This document shows, one piece after another, positions 25,155 to 29,568 of a DNA stretch of 64,000 bases; position 1 is the first letter of the stretch, and each line of letters starts with the position of its first letter. Position numbers and translations under genes: made by a program. The notes beneath the pieces were generated by a model that was given only the letters and a program-made list of their open reading frames with translations, did not search any database and had not been told where the DNA came from. Source of the stretch: Escherichia coli (GTDB lineage Bacteria; Pseudomonadota; Gammaproteobacteria; Enterobacterales; Enterobacteriaceae); NCBI RefSeq assembly GCF_011045215.1, contig NZ_CP049201.1. One strand, given 5' to 3'.

Positions 25155-26108
25155 ATGATGATGAAAAGCTGTATTCAGGCGGCCCTGATGGCTGCTGTTC
25201 TGCCGGGGGTATTCAGTCACCAGGCGGGGGCTGCTGAAGTGTCTGCTGCTCCGGAAGTCAGACGTGAACAGTCTGTACTGCCGTTTTTCCGGGAGCTGGC
25301 AGAAGGTTATGAACTGCCGGAACCATTTGGTGTTAATCTGAATTATATGCAAATCCGGCAGGGGATATCGGTGGACAGTATCCGGTTTTCCGGGTTACAC
25401 CTGGGCAGACTTCCTCTGGATAATATTGTACATATTGATGCCGGAAAGACCCGACAGAAAAGTCATACCGGAACACTCCGGTTTGATGCATGGGTGTTTC
25501 CTTTTATGAATCTGTATGGGCTTCTGGGAAAAACAACCGGACAGTCTGTATCAGATATCCGGGTCCGAACACCTCTGTTTACCGGCGGGGCGTTTCCGGG
25601 GGCCGGTACACAGAACCTGAAGTTCCGTCTGGATTTTCAGGGAACCACATATGGTGTCGGCACCACCCTGGTGGGCGGGATGAATAACTGGTTCACCTCG
25701 CTGGATGCCAATTATACGCAGACACGCTTTGATATTCTTGATGGTCATATTGATACTGTCACATTCTCACCCCGGGTGGGGTATTACTTTGATGTCCCTT
25801 CGGTACCGGTACTGCAGAGTTCTGCGGGCAGAATGAGTGTATGGGTCGGGGGGATGTACCAGGATGTTGAACAGCGCTTCAGGGGTAAACTGAATGACCT
25901 GAATATGCCATCACCTGCACTGCAGGCGGGGTTGTCACAACTGAATAAAACGGGGGATGCGCGTTTTGATGTCAGGCAGCATCTGAAAAAACCGTGGAAC
26001 ATGCTGGCTGGCATACGCTATGACCCCAGCCGGCACTTCAGTCTTATCGCCGAAGCGGGGTTTGAAAAGCGGAAAAGTTTTTTTGTTTCCGGTGAATACC
26101 GGTTCTGA
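25155..26108 (+). CDS. Putative outer-membrane beta-barrel protein
   Basis: 317 aa; signal peptide (...AAVLPGVFSHQAGA), alternating beta-strand pattern, C-terminal ...SGEYRF with terminal Phe. Confidence 0.6.
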   Translation: MMMKSCIQAALMAAVLPGVFSHQAGAAEVSAAPEVRREQSVLPFFRELAEGYELPEPFGVNLNYMQIRQGISVDSIRFSGLHLGRLPLDNIVHIDAGKTRQKSHTGTLRFDAWVFPFMNLYGLLGKTTGQSVSDIRVRTPLFTGGAFPGAGTQNLKFRLDFQGTTYGVGTTLVGGMNNWFTSLDANYTQTRFDILDGHIDTVTFSPRVGYYFDVPSVPVLQSSAGRMSVWVGGMYQDVEQRFRGKLNDLNMPSPALQAGLSQLNKTGDARFDVRQHLKKPWNMLAGIRYDPSRHFSLIAEAGFEKRKSFFVSGEYRF

Positions 26109-26130
26109 ACCTGGAGAAGACAGCCCGGTG

Positions 26131-26161
26131 GATACGGCGATAATATAATTATCGCCGTATC
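26131..26161. promoter_or_regulatory. Perfect 14-3-14 palindrome (candidate operator or hairpin)
   Basis: GATACGGCGATAAT-ATA-ATTATCGCCGTATC, 23 bp after the stop of the OMP gene, upstream of a small wHTH gene; no T-tract after it. Confidence 0.3.
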
Positions 26162-26305
26162 AGGATAAATACCATGATTAGATTCAGCGGGTGCACAAAA
26201 AAGAAATAATGCCGGGCTGACGATAATAAAATTTAATATATTAATATCTTTGTGGAATATTTGTTGCAATGTGTATGTTATTCCCGCATGCACAGGAGAT
26301 TATCT

Positions 26306-26557
26306 ATGTGTGACAAAACCATGAAACGCAGGGACAATACCGCATTATATCAGGATGACTGTGAAGCACTGCTCCTCTGGATGAAATTCCGGGAGGATAA
26401 ATATGGTGAAGTCTTGTTTCGTGTTATTGATATTGCGTACGGACTGGATATGTCTGTGCGCCAGTGTTGTATCTGTCTGAATTTTTTGTATGAAGCCGGA
26501 CTGGTGGATTACGACGAAAATAATAACAGGTTGTCCAGACAGTGGTTTCTTGTCTGA
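26306..26557 (+). CDS. Small winged-helix protein, weakly PapI-like (paralog of 21480..21770)
   Basis: ORF 26252..26557; preferred start Met 26306 preceded by AGGAG; ...VRQCCICLNFLYEAGLV...SRQWFLV. Confidence 0.45.
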   Translation: MCDKTMKRRDNTALYQDDCEALLLWMKFREDKYGEVLFRVIDIAYGLDMSVRQCCICLNFLYEAGLVDYDENNNRLSRQWFLV

Positions 26558-27795: not shown

Positions 27796-27832
27796 GAGGG
27801 TGTGTTTTGGGTTGCAGGGAGTGGATGTTATG

Positions 27833-28708
27833 AACATTCAGGTGGAACATCACAGGGGAGCATGGCGTCTCATTTTACTTCTGGCAGGTATTGTCATACC
27901 GGTTTACGGGTACAGTCATGAACTGTCAGGCACTTATGCCAGAATATTAAGTATGCATTTTTCGGATGACATCAGTGCTTCCGGATTGCGGACAGAGGGA
28001 GGGGGGAAATATTCCCGCTGGACTGTTCCCTGGCACAGCGAATGTCTGTATGACACGGGGATGGTCTGCTCCGGGGTGTACCTCAGGGGAAGTTATATTG
28101 ACCTGAAAGGGGATGTTGATGATGGTGCCGTGGTTCACTGGCGGTCATATGGCACGCTTGTGGGGACAGATGTCACCGTCAGGTTGTCTGAACATGTTTC
28201 AGTCAGGGGAGGTCTGGGCGTGGGATATGCCCGGGTTCGCAACATGAGTCGCGGGATGGAAGGTGATGAAAATTATGAAGAGGTGCTGGGGTGGGAGCGA
28301 AAAAATGCCCTGATTGTTTCCCCCGAAATCAGCAGTACGATAACGTCCGGTAATTTTACCCTGAGTCCGGGTCTCTCATTTTTATCCCTGCGTGAATTCT
28401 CATCATCCCGTCATGATATTGGTTCGCACGCGGGAAGTTATTCCGTCAGGATGACTTATACGTTCCGGGATGTGTTCCGTGTGATGGGGCGCGGAAGTGA
28501 TGTCATTGTGGAAAACAATACCGGAGGTTTTTACGGTCCGGGCTGGAAAGAAGACCTGGGATTCAGTCTGGTGAATGAGACGCAACTGTTGTTCAGTATT
28601 CCCTTCTGTGTTGGTGGTCATGTTTTCTCTCTGCGTGCCGGGCCGGGCTTCATAAAGGGGAACGGGGGAGTCAGAGGGGTGTCATTTTCTTTTGGTCTGA
28701 AAACATGA
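27833..28708 (+). CDS. Putative beta-rich outer-membrane/secreted protein
   Basis: ORF 27731..28708; likely start Met 27833 (MNIQVEHHRGAWRLILLLAGIVIPVYG signal/anchor); Gly/Ser/Tyr-rich alternating pattern. Confidence 0.5.
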   Translation, partial: NIQVEHHRGAWRLILLLAGIVIPVYGYSHELSGTYARILSMHFSDDISASGLRTEGGGKYSRWTVPWHSECLYDTGMVCSGVYLRGSYIDLKGDVDDGAVVHWRSYGTLVGTDVTVRLSEHVSVRGGLGVGYARVRNMSRGMEGDENYEEVLGWERKNALIVSPEISSTITSGNFTLSPGLSFLSLREFSSSRHDIGSHAGSYSVRMTYTFRDVFRVMGRGSDVIVENNTGGFYGPGWKEDLGFSLVNETQLLFSIPFCVGGHVFSLRAGPGFIKGNGGVRGVSFSFGLKT

Positions 28709-28728
28709 TGTGAAATCAGAAAAACAAC

Positions 28729-29568
28729 ATGAATGATAAAAAGACAGGGACGGCGCTGATACGGAAAATGACCATTGACAGGATTATCGAATATATCGAA
28801 CTTCATCTTGAAAGTGGTAAACGGATGAGCATTCATTCACTGAGTGCTTATTCCGGTTACTGCCGCAGACATCTGCAGCGTATTTTTCTGCTGGAGACGG
28901 GAATGCGGCTGGGCGAATATATTCGTCGCAGGCGACTGAGTCGGGCTGCCCTGCTCTGTCGCCTGTCGTTACGTGGGTTTCAGGATATTGCCTGTAGTCT
29001 GGGATTTGATTCCCAGCAGACATTTAACCGTGAATTCAGGAAAACAGCCGGCGTGACGCCCGGACAGTACCGCAGCCAGCCGGAATGGCGGCTTTTGCCG
29101 CTGGCAGGTCGTGCCGGCATCTCTTTTTCTGTTCCGGTCCCGGAGAGGGTTCATCTTCCGGAAGGCCGTATTGTGGGACGACCACTGACGTTTTCCGGCC
29201 GTATACATGAGGTCCGGGATAACGGGGCGGCGGCATTTTCCGAAAGTGTGTTTGCCTGTCAGCAGGAGGCTCAGTGGTTGGTGGTGACGGCAATAACGCC
29301 GGTGGGAGGCAGGAAAGGGGATTATGAGGTCCGTTGTGGTGTGGGCGCACCGGATAACCCGTGCGGAAACGTCTTCTCATGGGCCGAGGGGGATTACCTG
29401 TCTGTCACGTTTGAGACCACAACGACCACCCATGCGGCCCGTGCAGATTACATTTATATGAACATCCTGCCCGCTCATGGAGTTGTCCGTACGCCCGGGG
29501 TGGACATACTCGTCTTTCGTTACCATGAGGAGCGGGTGTTCTGTACGCTTTACATCCCGGTCAGTTAA
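28729..29568 (+). CDS. AraC/XylS-family regulator with N-terminal HTH and C-terminal GyrI-like effector domain (Rob-like architecture)
   Basis: 279 aa; N-terminal dual HTH (...IHSLSAYSGYCRRHLQRIF...ACSLGFDSQQTFNREFRKTAGVTPGQYR...) then ~160-aa C-terminal domain. Confidence 0.8.
   Translation: MNDKKTGTALIRKMTIDRIIEYIELHLESGKRMSIHSLSAYSGYCRRHLQRIFLLETGMRLGEYIRRRRLSRAALLCRLSLRGFQDIACSLGFDSQQTFNREFRKTAGVTPGQYRSQPEWRLLPLAGRAGISFSVPVPERVHLPEGRIVGRPLTFSGRIHEVRDNGAAAFSESVFACQQEAQWLVVTAITPVGGRKGDYEVRCGVGAPDNPCGNVFSWAEGDYLSVTFETTTTTHAARADYIYMNILPAHGVVRTPGVDILVFRYHEERVFCTLYIPVS

What the first reader, a model, noticed from the sequence alone, without database searches (positions are those of the whole stretch)
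25155..29568. Uncharacterised envelope gene cluster: two beta-barrel-like OMPs, a secreted protein, a small wHTH gene and a Rob-like regulator
Four consecutive same-strand genes encode signal-peptide proteins with no recognisable function, followed by an AraC/XylS regulator whose HTH is N-terminal with a GyrI-like C-terminal domain (Rob architecture, less common than classical AraC). Its position between shf-capU-virK and ibrAB suggests a co-regulated surface or export function not assignable by eye.
Basis: inference. Interest (0 to 1): 0.5.

Follow-up and report, generated by a model that had tools for sequence, protein, structure and literature searches.

The report
Outer-membrane lipid-enzyme gene cluster variant
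Five real genes on a mobile E. coli island: two outer-membrane barrels, a secreted DUF4056 enzyme predicted to cut or swap lipid head groups, and two regulators, forming a rare rearranged version of an unstudied cassette found in over 300 bacterial species.

Summary
Window 25155-29568 carries five intact same-strand genes.

- ORF1 (317 aa) is a 10-stranded outer-membrane (OM) barrel.
- ORF2 (83 aa) is a divergent PapI/FaeA-type winged-helix protein.
- ORF3 (381 aa) is a secreted DUF4056 protein.
- ORF4 (292 aa) is a 12-stranded OM barrel from a very rare family.
- ORF5 (279 aa) is an AraC regulator with Rob-like architecture.

Three of these have signal peptides, not four.

ORF1 and ORF3 are two parts of a conserved, uncharacterised cassette: ORF1-like barrel, POTRA-less Omp85, then DUF4056. 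Among 80 species loci, 74 have the ORF1-like gene and 71 the Omp85-like gene. Photobacterium has the cassette too. The window lacks the Omp85 gene and has ORF4 downstream instead. The same variant sits after shf-capU(-virK) in two other islands about 61% identical in protein.

DUF4056 is the "CapCone-DUF4056" family of the Lipocone superfamily, the clade of the lipid II phosphatase TelC. ORF3 keeps every published catalytic motif.

My best reading is a periplasmic or OM-associated lipid head-group enzyme with dedicated barrels. It is attached to the shf-capU-virK envelope-remodelling operon where msbB2 normally sits, with its own regulators. Substrate and co-transcription are untested.

It is a worthwhile lead, not a surprise: a new variant of a computationally known kind.

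The parts
21501..21770 (+). Unannotated paralogue of ORF2 (PapI/FaeA-like small wHTH), context
   Evidence: phmmer with ORF2 hits the stop-to-stop ORF 21444-21767 at E 1.6e-9. The same ORF2-like then FaeA-like order lies upstream of the shf remnant in L002.
21807..22022 (+). FaeA/PapI-family regulator gene, context
   Evidence: Pfam FaeA E 3.7e-10. PGAP annotates it as a FaeA/PapI family regulator.
22177..23019 (+). shf (polysaccharide/peptidoglycan deacetylase family), first gene of the upstream envelope operon
   Evidence: ORF. PGAP annotation. The Shigella orthologue SfPgdA is described in PMC7355660.
23023..24126 (+). capU (GT4 glycosyltransferase)
   Evidence: The Shigella orthologue SfGtr4 transfers glucose to lipid A in vitro (PMC7355660).
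24208..25149 (+). virK (VirK/YbjX, DUF535)
25155..26108 (+). ORF1: 317-aa, 10-stranded outer-membrane beta-barrel with signal peptide, ending SGEYRF. It is the conserved partner of DUF4056.
26131..26161 (+). 14-bp perfect stem-loop 23 nt after the ORF1 stop, without a U tract. Possible partial terminator, RNA stabiliser or operator.
   Evidence: RNA fold z-score -3.4; 0 of 200 shuffles fold as well. Sequence.
26306..26557 (+). ORF2: 83-aa cytoplasmic winged-helix protein, a divergent PapI/FaeA/PefI relative
   Evidence: hhalign probability 95%, E 3e-8, against a FaeA-like alignment. Top PDB matches are PapI 2htj at E 0.01 and PefI 2jt1 at E 0.49. An 81%-identical copy lies after a Pef-type fimbrial operon on another plasmid. 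No signal peptide.
26650..27795 (+). ORF3: 381-aa secreted DUF4056 protein (CapCone-DUF4056 Lipocone), the predicted enzyme of the cluster
   Evidence: Pfam PF13265 E 1.7e-105. Invariant G124, D127, H130, E201, S219, S222, D225, S228 and N229 match the motifs in the paper. The N-terminus MGYITDRQQKIKWLLFLLLWCCQAQA/ALP reads as a signal peptide.
27830..28708 (+). ORF4: 292-aa, 12-stranded outer-membrane beta-barrel of a very rare family
28729..29568 (+). ORF5: 279-aa AraC/XylS regulator with N-terminal HTH and a Rob-like C-terminal domain
   Evidence: HTH_18 at residues 39-116, E 1e-18. BLASTP to E. coli Rob gives 38% identity over residues 16-164. A 3-sequence profile aligns with Rob residues 20-287 at E 3e-31. 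The C-terminal half gives a weak Cass2 hit, E 0.069.
30201..32074 (+). ibrA/ibrB-like pair (PAPS-reductase-like plus ParB-N), downstream context

Best explanation
The cluster is a derived, island-borne version of an ancient gammaproteobacterial outer-membrane cassette.

The working enzyme is ORF3. It is a Sec-exported, soluble DUF4056 (CapCone Lipocone) protein. It is predicted to hold a lipid tail in a helical cone and to cleave or exchange a phosphate-linked head group. Candidate substrates are lipid A/LPS, an undecaprenyl-diphosphate-linked glycan, or a phospholipid.

ORF3 works at the periplasmic face or the surface of the outer membrane with dedicated barrels. The 10-strand ORF1 is its near-constant partner. 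In this variant the 12-strand ORF4 occupies the place that a POTRA-less Omp85 barrel holds in the canonical cassette.

The module has been attached to the shf-capU-virK envelope-remodelling operon. ORF1 is translationally coupled to virK, in the slot that holds the lipid A acyltransferase gene msbB2 in Shigella and EAEC.

The module also acquired its own regulators: a PapI/FaeA-like wHTH (ORF2) and a Rob-like, probably ligand-sensing, AraC activator (ORF5).

Shown here: gene content, folds, family membership, motif retention, and conservation of gene order. Inferred: catalysis, substrate, the role of the barrels, the transcription units, and the regulators' targets.
For: Family and motifs:
- ORF3 matches Pfam DUF4056 at 352.6 bits against a cut-off of 23.6.
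- Burroughs et al. 2025 place DUF4056 in the ClaspCone-CapCone-TelC clade of Lipocones. They predict these to be soluble enzymes acting on phosphate-linked lipid head groups.
- ORF3 retains G124 at -6 and V126-D127 at -4/-3 from H130 (helix H2), E201 (H3), and S219-A-F-S222-P-E-D225...S228-N229 (H4). All of these are invariant in 20 homologues.

Partnership with barrels:
- In 80 species-level loci, 74 have an ORF1 homologue upstream and 71 have a 377-aa Omp85-domain barrel between the two genes.
- Gene boundaries touch or overlap in the Salmonella and Edwardsiella loci.
- The same cassette occurs in Photobacterium and, flanked by IS66, on E. coli plasmid p12A2.

The variant is recurrent:
- shf/capU/(virK remnant), ORF1, DUF4056, ORF4 occur in that order in C. 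freundii L093, with a 9-nt gap and then a 4-nt overlap.
- Escherichia sp. E4742 L002 has the same order.
- Both islands are about 61% identical to the window in protein, with dN/dS of 0.16-0.22.

Folds.

Envelope context: the Shigella shf-capU-virK-msbB2 locus is PhoPQ-regulated and modifies peptidoglycan and lipid A (PMC7355660). ORF1 starts 5 nt after virK.

Regulators.
Against: - No member of the DUF4056, ORF1 or ORF4 families has been studied experimentally in the searchable literature. Lipocone activity for DUF4056 is a computational prediction.
- The Omp85 partner, present in 71 of 80 loci, is missing from the whole window. The module could therefore be impaired.
- ORF4 shows no detectable homology to Omp85 or to ORF1 (hhalign probability at most about 1%). 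Its distant relatives stand alone. Its role as a substitute rests on gene order in three islands only.
- ORF4 is frameshifted in E4742.
- None of the 80 canonical loci is linked to shf, capU or virK. The lipid A/LPS guess therefore rests on the island context only.
- Among near-identical plasmids, ORF3 shows 6 amino-acid changes in 8 substitutions. The count is too small to interpret.
- No marbox-like site was found in the cluster's intergenic regions.
Confidence: 0.45

Rival explanations
1. Toxin or effector export system. DUF4056 is a lipid-targeting toxin against competing bacteria or host membranes. It is released through or with the barrels, or delivered by a type VI secretion system (T6SS).
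For: - Sister CapCone-1 and CapCone-2 families and TelC are toxin domains. CapCone-2 pairs with OMP barrels in predatory bacteria.
- A Salmonella study lists a DUF4056 ORF in an SPI-6 variable region as a candidate T6SS effector (PMC11669294).
- The canonical partner is an Omp85-family barrel, the family that includes two-partner secretion transporters.
- Many host genera are animal or insect pathogens.
- The window itself carries a T6SS cluster about 15 kb away.
Against: - Every aligned DUF4056 has an N-terminal hydrophobic leader. Four of the 20 (Photorhabdus, Xenorhabdus, Enterobacillus) and the Photobacterium copy have a lipobox. T6SS cargo normally has neither; this is established knowledge.
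- No small cognate immunity gene follows DUF4056 in the Salmonella or Edwardsiella loci.
- No VgrG, PAAR or Hcp gene is adjacent in the window cluster or in those two loci; the other loci were not screened for these.
- Identity of 45-60% across genera with invariant motifs, and dN/dS about 0.2, does not look like a fast-evolving polymorphic toxin.
- The Omp85-like barrel has no POTRA match at E up to 10.
- The window's T6SS lies beyond IS elements and in most genomes is chromosomal and unlinked.
Confidence: 0.2
2. Adhesion or surface-antigen island cargo. ORF1 and ORF4 act mainly as surface-exposed barrels (adhesins, invasins or serum-resistance proteins like OpcA, Ail or OmpT). They are regulated with the neighbouring fimbriae by the PapI-like and AraC regulators. 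DUF4056 is incidental.
For: - ORF1's long strands resemble OmpT and OpcA, which project above the membrane.
- The island lies between a chaperone-usher fimbrial operon and ibrAB, next to YadA-type adhesins on sister plasmids.
- ORF2 relatives lie beside fimbrial operons.
- A 48%-identical ORF5 relative lies next to a MipA/OmpV barrel gene.
Against: - ORF1 is tied to DUF4056 in 74 of 80 loci, and none of five marker proteins from this island's neighbourhood (Shf, CapU, VirK, IbrA, FaeA-like) was found within 8 kb of them.
- ORF1's sequence is well conserved between genera, with 54% mean column identity and many invariant polar residues. That is unlike immune-exposed adhesins.
Confidence: 0.15
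3. Decaying remnant. The cassette lost its Omp85 component on entering the island, and the remaining genes are non-functional passengers.
For: - Omp85L is absent.
- ORF4 is frameshifted in E4742.
- One E. coli lineage has ORF1 fused to ORF4 with DUF4056 deleted (P0244).
- shf and virK are reduced to fragments in E4742 and C. freundii.
- The cluster is rare: 2 of 5426 complete E. coli genomes.
Against: - All five ORFs are intact in the window and in 7 plasmids from two species.
- dN/dS is 0.16-0.22 against diverged islands.
- All catalytic motifs are retained.
- Five chromosomal loci (L024, L028, L054, L062, L080) also have ORF1-DUF4056 without Omp85.
Confidence: 0.1

Closest known systems
CapCone-DUF4056 family of the Lipocone superfamily (Burroughs, Nicastro and Aravind, bioRxiv 10.1101/2025.01.14.632903); Pfam PF13265
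   Same: ORF3 is a full-length member. It has a strong Pfam match and every clade and family motif. It has low hydrophobicity and a secretion signal, as predicted for this clade.
   Different: Neither the main text nor the one supplementary file held as text describes a gene neighbourhood for this family. The ORF1/Omp85 cassette and the shf-capU-virK-linked variant are worked out here. No biochemistry exists for the family.
TelC, the lipid II phosphatase toxin of Streptococcus intermedius (same Lipocone clade)
   Same: It has the same predicted catalytic core (His, Glu, Asp in a helical cone) and attacks a phosphate linkage next to a polyisoprenoid lipid.
   Different: TelC is an LXG/type VII secretion toxin with the immunity protein TipC, in Gram-positive bacteria. 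ORF3 is Sec-exported, has no immunity gene and is paired with OM barrels. There is no sequence-level match to any PDB chain.
YfiM-Griddle and YfiM-DUF2279 Lipocones linked to OMP barrels; CapCone-2 plus OMP barrel pairs in Bdellovibrionota (same paper)
   Same: A Lipocone enzyme is operonically tied to one or more OM beta-barrels. The paper predicts they modify OM lipid head groups or release OM-linked polysaccharide.
   Different: These are different Lipocone families. The YfiM types are themselves membrane-embedded, whereas DUF4056 is soluble or lipid-anchored. The barrel families also differ.
shf-capU-virK-msbB2 locus (SfpgdA-Sfgtr4-virK-msbB2 of pWR100; EAEC pAA)
   Same: The first three genes are present in the same order, and the cluster begins 5 nt after virK. 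The Shigella locus is a PhoPQ-controlled envelope-remodelling operon (PMC7355660).
   Different: msbB2 is absent, and ORF1 to ORF5 occupy its place. On other ruminant plasmids the same slot holds a hypothetical gene plus an SDR oxidoreductase.
Rob (E. coli right-origin-binding protein; AraC/XylS with a C-terminal GyrI-like effector domain)
   Same: ORF5 has the same order of domains and nearly the same length. It is 38% identical over residues 16-164, its profile aligns collinearly to Rob residue 287, and it shares the C-terminal C-x-L-x-IP ending.
   Different: It is not an orthologue: 112 bits against the NCBIfam RobA cut-off of 380. No Pfam GyrI-like hit was found. Ligand and regulon are unknown.
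PapI/FaeA/PefI fimbrial phase-variation co-regulators
   Same: ORF2 has the same size and wHTH signature, a remote profile match, and relatives that lie beside fimbrial operons.
   Different: ORF2 falls below Pfam FaeA detection. It sits inside an envelope-enzyme cluster, and the ORF1-ORF2 spacer contains no GATC site.
10-strand barrels (OmpT, OpcA) and 12-strand barrels (autotransporter beta-domains, NanC, KdgM)
   Same: Strand number and overall barrel fold match, for ORF1 and ORF4 respectively.
   Different: Sequence identity is 4-13%. There are no Pfam hits, no passenger domain, and no evidence for omptin catalytic residues. The resemblance is in fold only.

Membership tests
Pfam DUF4056 / CapCone-DUF4056 (Lipocone superfamily) | Full-length match to PF13265 above the gathering score | tested here: met
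   352.6 bits against a cut-off of 23.6; residues 49-315 match profile positions 3-266 of 266.
Pfam DUF4056 / CapCone-DUF4056 (Lipocone superfamily) | H2 active-site His with Gly six positions upstream and an xD motif four positions upstream | tested here: met
   G124-F-V126-D127-T-A-H130. G124, D127 and H130 are invariant in 20 sequences.
Pfam DUF4056 / CapCone-DUF4056 (Lipocone superfamily) | H3 Glu, and H4 Asp preceded by S/GxxSxx with an aromatic residue before the Ser, and a small residue plus Asn at +3/+4 | tested here: met
   W199-H200-E201 are invariant. S219-A-F221-S222-P-E-D225-L-W-S228-N229: S219, S222, D225, S228 and N229 are invariant and F221 is nearly so (definitions).
Pfam DUF4056 / CapCone-DUF4056 (Lipocone superfamily) | Four-helix cone fold with cap and beta-hairpin clasp | not tested
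There is no PDB relative by sequence.
Pfam DUF4056 / CapCone-DUF4056 (Lipocone superfamily) | Cleavage or exchange of phosphate-linked lipid head groups | not testable with these tools
   This is a prediction of the paper only. No experimental paper mentions DUF4056.
Canonical ORF1L-Omp85L-DUF4056 cassette (defined here from 80 loci) | ORF1-like 10-strand barrel gene upstream of DUF4056 on the same strand | tested here: met
   ORF1 is 47-54% identical to the first gene of the Edwardsiella and Salmonella cassettes. In the window the two genes are separated by the inserted ORF2.
Canonical ORF1L-Omp85L-DUF4056 cassette (defined here from 80 loci) | POTRA-less Omp85-domain barrel (about 377 aa) between the two genes | tested here: not met
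   No Omp85L hit anywhere in the 64-kb window at E 1e-4. It is present in 71 of 80 loci.
Rob-type AraC/XylS regulators | N-terminal double-HTH AraC DNA-binding domain | tested here: met
   HTH_18 E 1e-18 at residues 39-116. Rob, SoxS, MarA and RamA are the best PDB matches.
Rob-type AraC/XylS regulators | C-terminal GyrI-like effector-binding domain | tested here: inconclusive
   The profile aligns collinearly with Rob residues 20-287, and Cass2 (GyrI-like clan, from memory) gives E 0.069 at the C-terminus. There is no significant stand-alone hit for the C-terminal half, and BLASTP similarity to Rob stops at residue 164.
Rob-type AraC/XylS regulators | Orthology to Rob (NCBIfam RobA equivalog cut-off) | tested here: not met
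   112 bits against a cut-off of 380.
PapI/FaeA/PefI family | Pfam FaeA (PF04703) match | tested here: not met
   No FaeA hit for ORF2 at E up to 10. The neighbouring gene at 21807-22022 does hit, at E 3.7e-10.
PapI/FaeA/PefI family | Remote homology to the family's wHTH | tested here: met
   hhalign probability 95%, E 3e-8, against FaeA-like sequences. PapI 2htj is the top PDB match at E 0.01.
shf-capU-virK-msbB2 operon | Fourth gene msbB2 (lipid A acyltransferase) after virK | tested here: not met
   The gene after virK is ORF1. None of the five proteins has an acyltransferase domain.
Omptin proteases | Omptin sequence family and catalytic Asp/Asp/Asp/His residues | tested here: not met
Autotransporters | Passenger domain plus linker helix inside a 12-strand barrel | tested here: not met
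   ORF4 is 292 aa: a signal peptide followed directly by 12 strands. The only helix is the signal peptide. No Pfam hit.
T6SS effector | No Sec signal; encoded next to VgrG, PAAR or Hcp with an immunity gene | tested here: not met
   A signal peptide or lipobox is present. No such neighbours are seen in the window cluster or in the Salmonella and Edwardsiella loci; the other loci were not screened. The window's T6SS begins about 14 kb away, beyond IS elements.

The most novel reading that the evidence does not exclude
The ORF1/DUF4056 pair, with Omp85L or ORF4, is a previously unrecognised outer-membrane machine. It edits the phosphate-linked head group of an OM glycolipid, for example by removing or transferring the lipid A 1-phosphate or diphosphate, or by releasing or ligating an Und-PP-linked glycan at the OM. 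The barrels present the lipid, or carry the soluble enzyme to the outer leaflet. The plasmid variant swaps this activity for MsbB2 acylation in a host-responsive envelope-remodelling operon.
Probability: 0.25. Interest if true: 0.75.

Novelty: new variant of a known kind. Interest (0 to 1): 0.5.

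Why it matters
If DUF4056 is an active lipid head-group enzyme, it would be the first Gram-negative, non-toxin member of the TelC clade with a defined cellular context.

The conserved cassette occurs in Salmonella, Klebsiella, Citrobacter, Edwardsiella, Serratia, Providencia, Photorhabdus, Xenorhabdus and Photobacterium. It would represent an unstudied route of outer-membrane remodelling. Such a route could affect antimicrobial-peptide resistance, innate immune recognition and OM biogenesis.

The island variant gives a compact handle for experiments. It is a plasmid-borne module of three structural genes without the Omp85 component. It sits in the msbB2 slot of a known virulence-associated operon and carries its own Rob-like sensor.

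It would also assign a first function to a class of POTRA-less Omp85 proteins.

Tried and rejected
- NCBIfam, PADLOC and PDB sequence searches gave nothing for ORF1 to ORF4.
- I tested whether ORF4 is a degenerate Omp85 or an ORF1 paralogue. hhalign probabilities were at most about 1%, so I rejected both ideas.
- I looked for an Omp85L remnant between ORF1 and ORF3 or elsewhere in the window. There is none.
- I checked whether ORF4 is always linked to DUF4056. It is not: distant homologues stand alone.
- A marbox/Rob-box consensus scan found 8 hits against 17 expected by chance, and none in the cluster's intergenic regions.
- The promoter and terminator consensus scan was barely above shuffled expectation and not decisive.
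- dN/dS between near-identical plasmids had too few substitutions to interpret. Diverged islands were used instead.
- I checked whether the small lipobox ORF at 29784-30032 could be a BamE-like immunity gene. It has no homologue outside near-identical plasmids, so the idea was not pursued.
- The AFDB structure library was unavailable.
- The Lipocone paper's one supplementary file held as text contains no mention of DUF4056.

Full report
**What is in the window**

The interval 25155-29568 holds five same-strand ORFs.
- ORF1 runs from 25155 to 26108 (317 aa).
- ORF2 runs from 26306 to 26557 (83 aa). I take the ATG preceded by AGGAGA as its start.
- ORF3 runs from 26650 to 27795 (381 aa).
- ORF4 runs from 27830 to 28708 (292 aa).
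- ORF5 runs from 28729 to 29568 (279 aa).

Upstream lie shf, capU and virK (22177-25149). Downstream lies an ibrA/ibrB-like pair (30201-32074).

The DNA is 98.6-99.5% identical to 7 conjugative IncF plasmids of cattle and sheep E. coli and E. fergusonii. It occurs in only 2 of 5426 complete E. coli genomes. The block shared by those plasmids corresponds to about window 22.2-34.5 kb and is bounded by IS elements.

The window is a mosaic. Its left 34 kb matches plasmid A of E. coli C5. The region from 40.6 to 60 kb is a T6SS cluster that is chromosomal in nearly all E. coli genomes that carry it.

**The genes are real**

Each gene has homologues in other genera. Against two diverged copies of the island, about 61% identical in protein, dN/dS is 0.16-0.22 for ORF1, ORF3 and ORF4.

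ORF1, ORF3 and ORF4 start with a basic n-region, a hydrophobic stretch and an AxA-like cleavage site. ORF2 and ORF5 do not.

**ORF3**

ORF3 is a full-length DUF4056 protein (PF13265, E 1.7e-105).

The only substantive literature is the Lipocone superfamily preprint (10.1101/2025.01.14.632903). It names a "CapCone-DUF4056" family within the ClaspCone-CapCone-TelC clade. The authors predict soluble enzymes that house a lipid tail in a helical cone and cleave or swap phosphate-linked head groups. TelC, a lipid II phosphatase, and the phosphatidylserine synthases PTDSS1/2 are the characterised examples.

I compared the published motif definitions with an alignment of 20 homologues. ORF3 has:
- G124 six residues before H130, with V126-D127 at the xD position (helix H2);
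- E201 (helix H3);
- S219-A-F221-S222-P-E-D225, followed by S228-N229 (helix H4).

All named residues are invariant, apart from V126 (the variable x of the xD motif) and F221 (nearly invariant). So ORF3 is a member with an intact predicted active site. The fold itself was not modelled.

**ORF1 and the conserved cassette**

ORF1 has no Pfam family. Its homologues are widespread in Enterobacterales (302 hits).

Context is the main new result. In Salmonella and Edwardsiella chromosomes, DUF4056 is the third gene of a tightly packed operon. The order is ORF1-like barrel, then a 377-aa Omp85-domain barrel with no POTRA match, then DUF4056.

A scan of one genome per GTDB species found 314 species encoding a DUF4056 relative. 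Among the best 80 loci, all Enterobacterales, 74 have the ORF1-like gene upstream and 71 have the Omp85-like gene between. The same three genes occur in Photobacterium. They also occur, bracketed by IS66, on E. coli plasmid p12A2.

None of the 80 loci has shf, capU, virK, ORF2 or ORF4 nearby.

**The window's variant**

The window has no Omp85-like gene at all. ORF2 lies between ORF1 and ORF3, and ORF4 follows ORF3.

This is not a one-off. In a C. freundii contig (L093) the order is shf fragment, capU, virK remnant, ORF1, DUF4056, ORF4. There is a 9-nt gap, then a 4-nt overlap, and no ORF2.

In Escherichia sp. E4742 (L002) the order is ORF2-like, FaeA-like, shf and virK remnants, ORF1, DUF4056, a frameshifted ORF4, and later an AraC homologue.

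So a "type B" module, ORF1-DUF4056-ORF4 sitting after shf-capU-virK, is an evolutionarily stable arrangement. ORF2 is a later insertion. It is a paralogue of an unannotated gene at about 21501-21770, upstream of the FaeA-like gene.

**ORF4**

ORF4 belongs to a very rare family: 7 clusters at 90% identity, and 33 representatives among 1.8 billion.

ORF4 shows no detectable homology to Omp85L or ORF1. Distant relatives stand alone. Its role as a replacement for Omp85L is inferred from gene order only.

**Regulators**

ORF2 is a divergent PapI/FaeA/PefI-type wHTH. The evidence is an hhalign probability of 95%, PapI as the top PDB match, and an 81%-identical copy behind a Pef-type fimbrial operon.

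ORF5 has an N-terminal AraC domain. It is 38% identical to Rob over residues 16-164. A small profile aligns it collinearly with Rob residues 20-287, and the C-terminal half gives a weak Cass2 hit. The Rob architecture is supported. Orthology is not: 112 bits against a cut-off of 380.

**Operon structure (inference only)**

ORF1's ATG is 5 nt after the virK stop. This is the position of msbB2 in the Shigella and EAEC shf-capU-virK-msbB2 locus. That locus is a PhoPQ-regulated envelope-remodelling operon (PMC7355660).

A 197-nt AT-rich spacer then follows, with a 14-bp perfect hairpin at 26131-26161 (z-score -3.4, no U tract). It precedes ORF2.

ORF2 to ORF5 are separated by 92, 34 and 20 nt, with no terminator-like element in those gaps. 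I therefore expect two units, shf-capU-virK-ORF1 and ORF2-ORF5, possibly with read-through.

On other ruminant plasmids, the slot between virK and ibrAB holds different cargo: a hypothetical gene plus an SDR oxidoreductase.

**Mechanism**

My best reading (confidence about 0.45) is that ORF3 is a periplasmic or OM-associated enzyme acting on lipid head groups. It would work with ORF1 and, here, ORF4. The module has been recruited into an envelope-remodelling operon and placed under a PapI-like and a Rob-like regulator.

A role in lipid A or LPS chemistry is suggested only by the island context.

The rivals are:
- a toxin or effector system (0.2), weakened by the Sec or lipoprotein signals, the absence of immunity genes, and slow evolution;
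- surface adhesin cargo (0.15);
- a decaying remnant (0.1).

**Verdict**

The added value here is threefold:
- the enzyme assignment;
- the discovery that ORF1 and ORF3 are two parts of a widespread, unstudied three-gene OM cassette;
- the recognition of a recurrent Omp85-less, ORF4-containing variant attached to shf-capU-virK.

It is a solid experimental lead of moderate interest, not a categorically new system.

Noticed in passing
window 21444-21770 (+): An unannotated ORF is paralogous to ORF2 (E 1.6e-9). It lies immediately upstream of the FaeA-like gene at 21807-22022. The same ORF2-like then FaeA-like pair precedes the shf remnant in Escherichia sp. E4742.
   Followed up: partly
window 18579-21483 (+): Three consecutive ORFs of about 315 aa follow the chaperone-usher fimbrial operon. 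Each has a signal peptide. None has a Pfam hit, and they show no BLAST similarity to each other. They may be fimbria-associated adhesins.
   Followed up: partly
window 29784-30032 (+): A small ORF with a lipobox (…VLFCITSC…) lies in the 633-nt gap between ORF5 and ibrA. PGAP does not annotate it, and it is seen only in near-identical plasmids.
   Followed up: partly
window 26131-26161: A 14-bp perfect inverted repeat (ATACGGCGATAAT…ATTATCGCCGTAT) lies 23 nt after the ORF1 stop. It lacks a U tract. It could be an RNA stabiliser, a partial terminator or an operator.
   Followed up: partly
window 43600-58900 (+): A type VI secretion cluster: TssC 44152-45696, TssK 45712-47049, an OmpA-domain protein 47606-49432, ClpV 50089-52785 and VgrG 53716-56238, followed by a class-3 lipase (a likely Tle effector) at 56235-58145. 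It is 96.6% identical to the best-matching STEC chromosomes, and nearly all matching places in E. coli genomes are chromosomal. The left half of the window matches a plasmid, so the window is a mosaic.
   Followed up: partly
window 3928-7878 (+): A 774-aa protein has an internal AraC HTH (residues 182-259) and is otherwise unassigned. It is followed by a 300-aa EAL-domain protein.
   Followed up: no
protein P0244 (E. coli, 407 aa): The N-terminus of an ORF1-like protein is fused in frame to a full ORF4 homologue. This implies deletion of the 3' part of ORF1 and all of DUF4056 in that lineage.
   Followed up: no
L095 (CP057124.1) 9043-16583: A related ruminant E. coli plasmid island has the order FaeA-like, shf, GT4, DUF535, a 161-aa hypothetical gene, SDR oxidoreductase, ibrAB, PerC. 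The slot after virK is a variable cargo site.
   Followed up: partly
L096 (Photobacterium sp. DA100) 3763-8083: The ORF1L-Omp85L-DUF4056 cassette is conserved in Vibrionales. Here DUF4056 has a lipobox, and a fourth overlapping lipoprotein gene (321 aa) follows.
   Followed up: partly
window 39281-39919 (+): A truncated general porin gene matches only Pfam Porin_1 positions 126-337. It lies next to a YfdX-family gene at 38141-38752 (-). It is probably a junction left by IS-mediated rearrangement.
   Followed up: no
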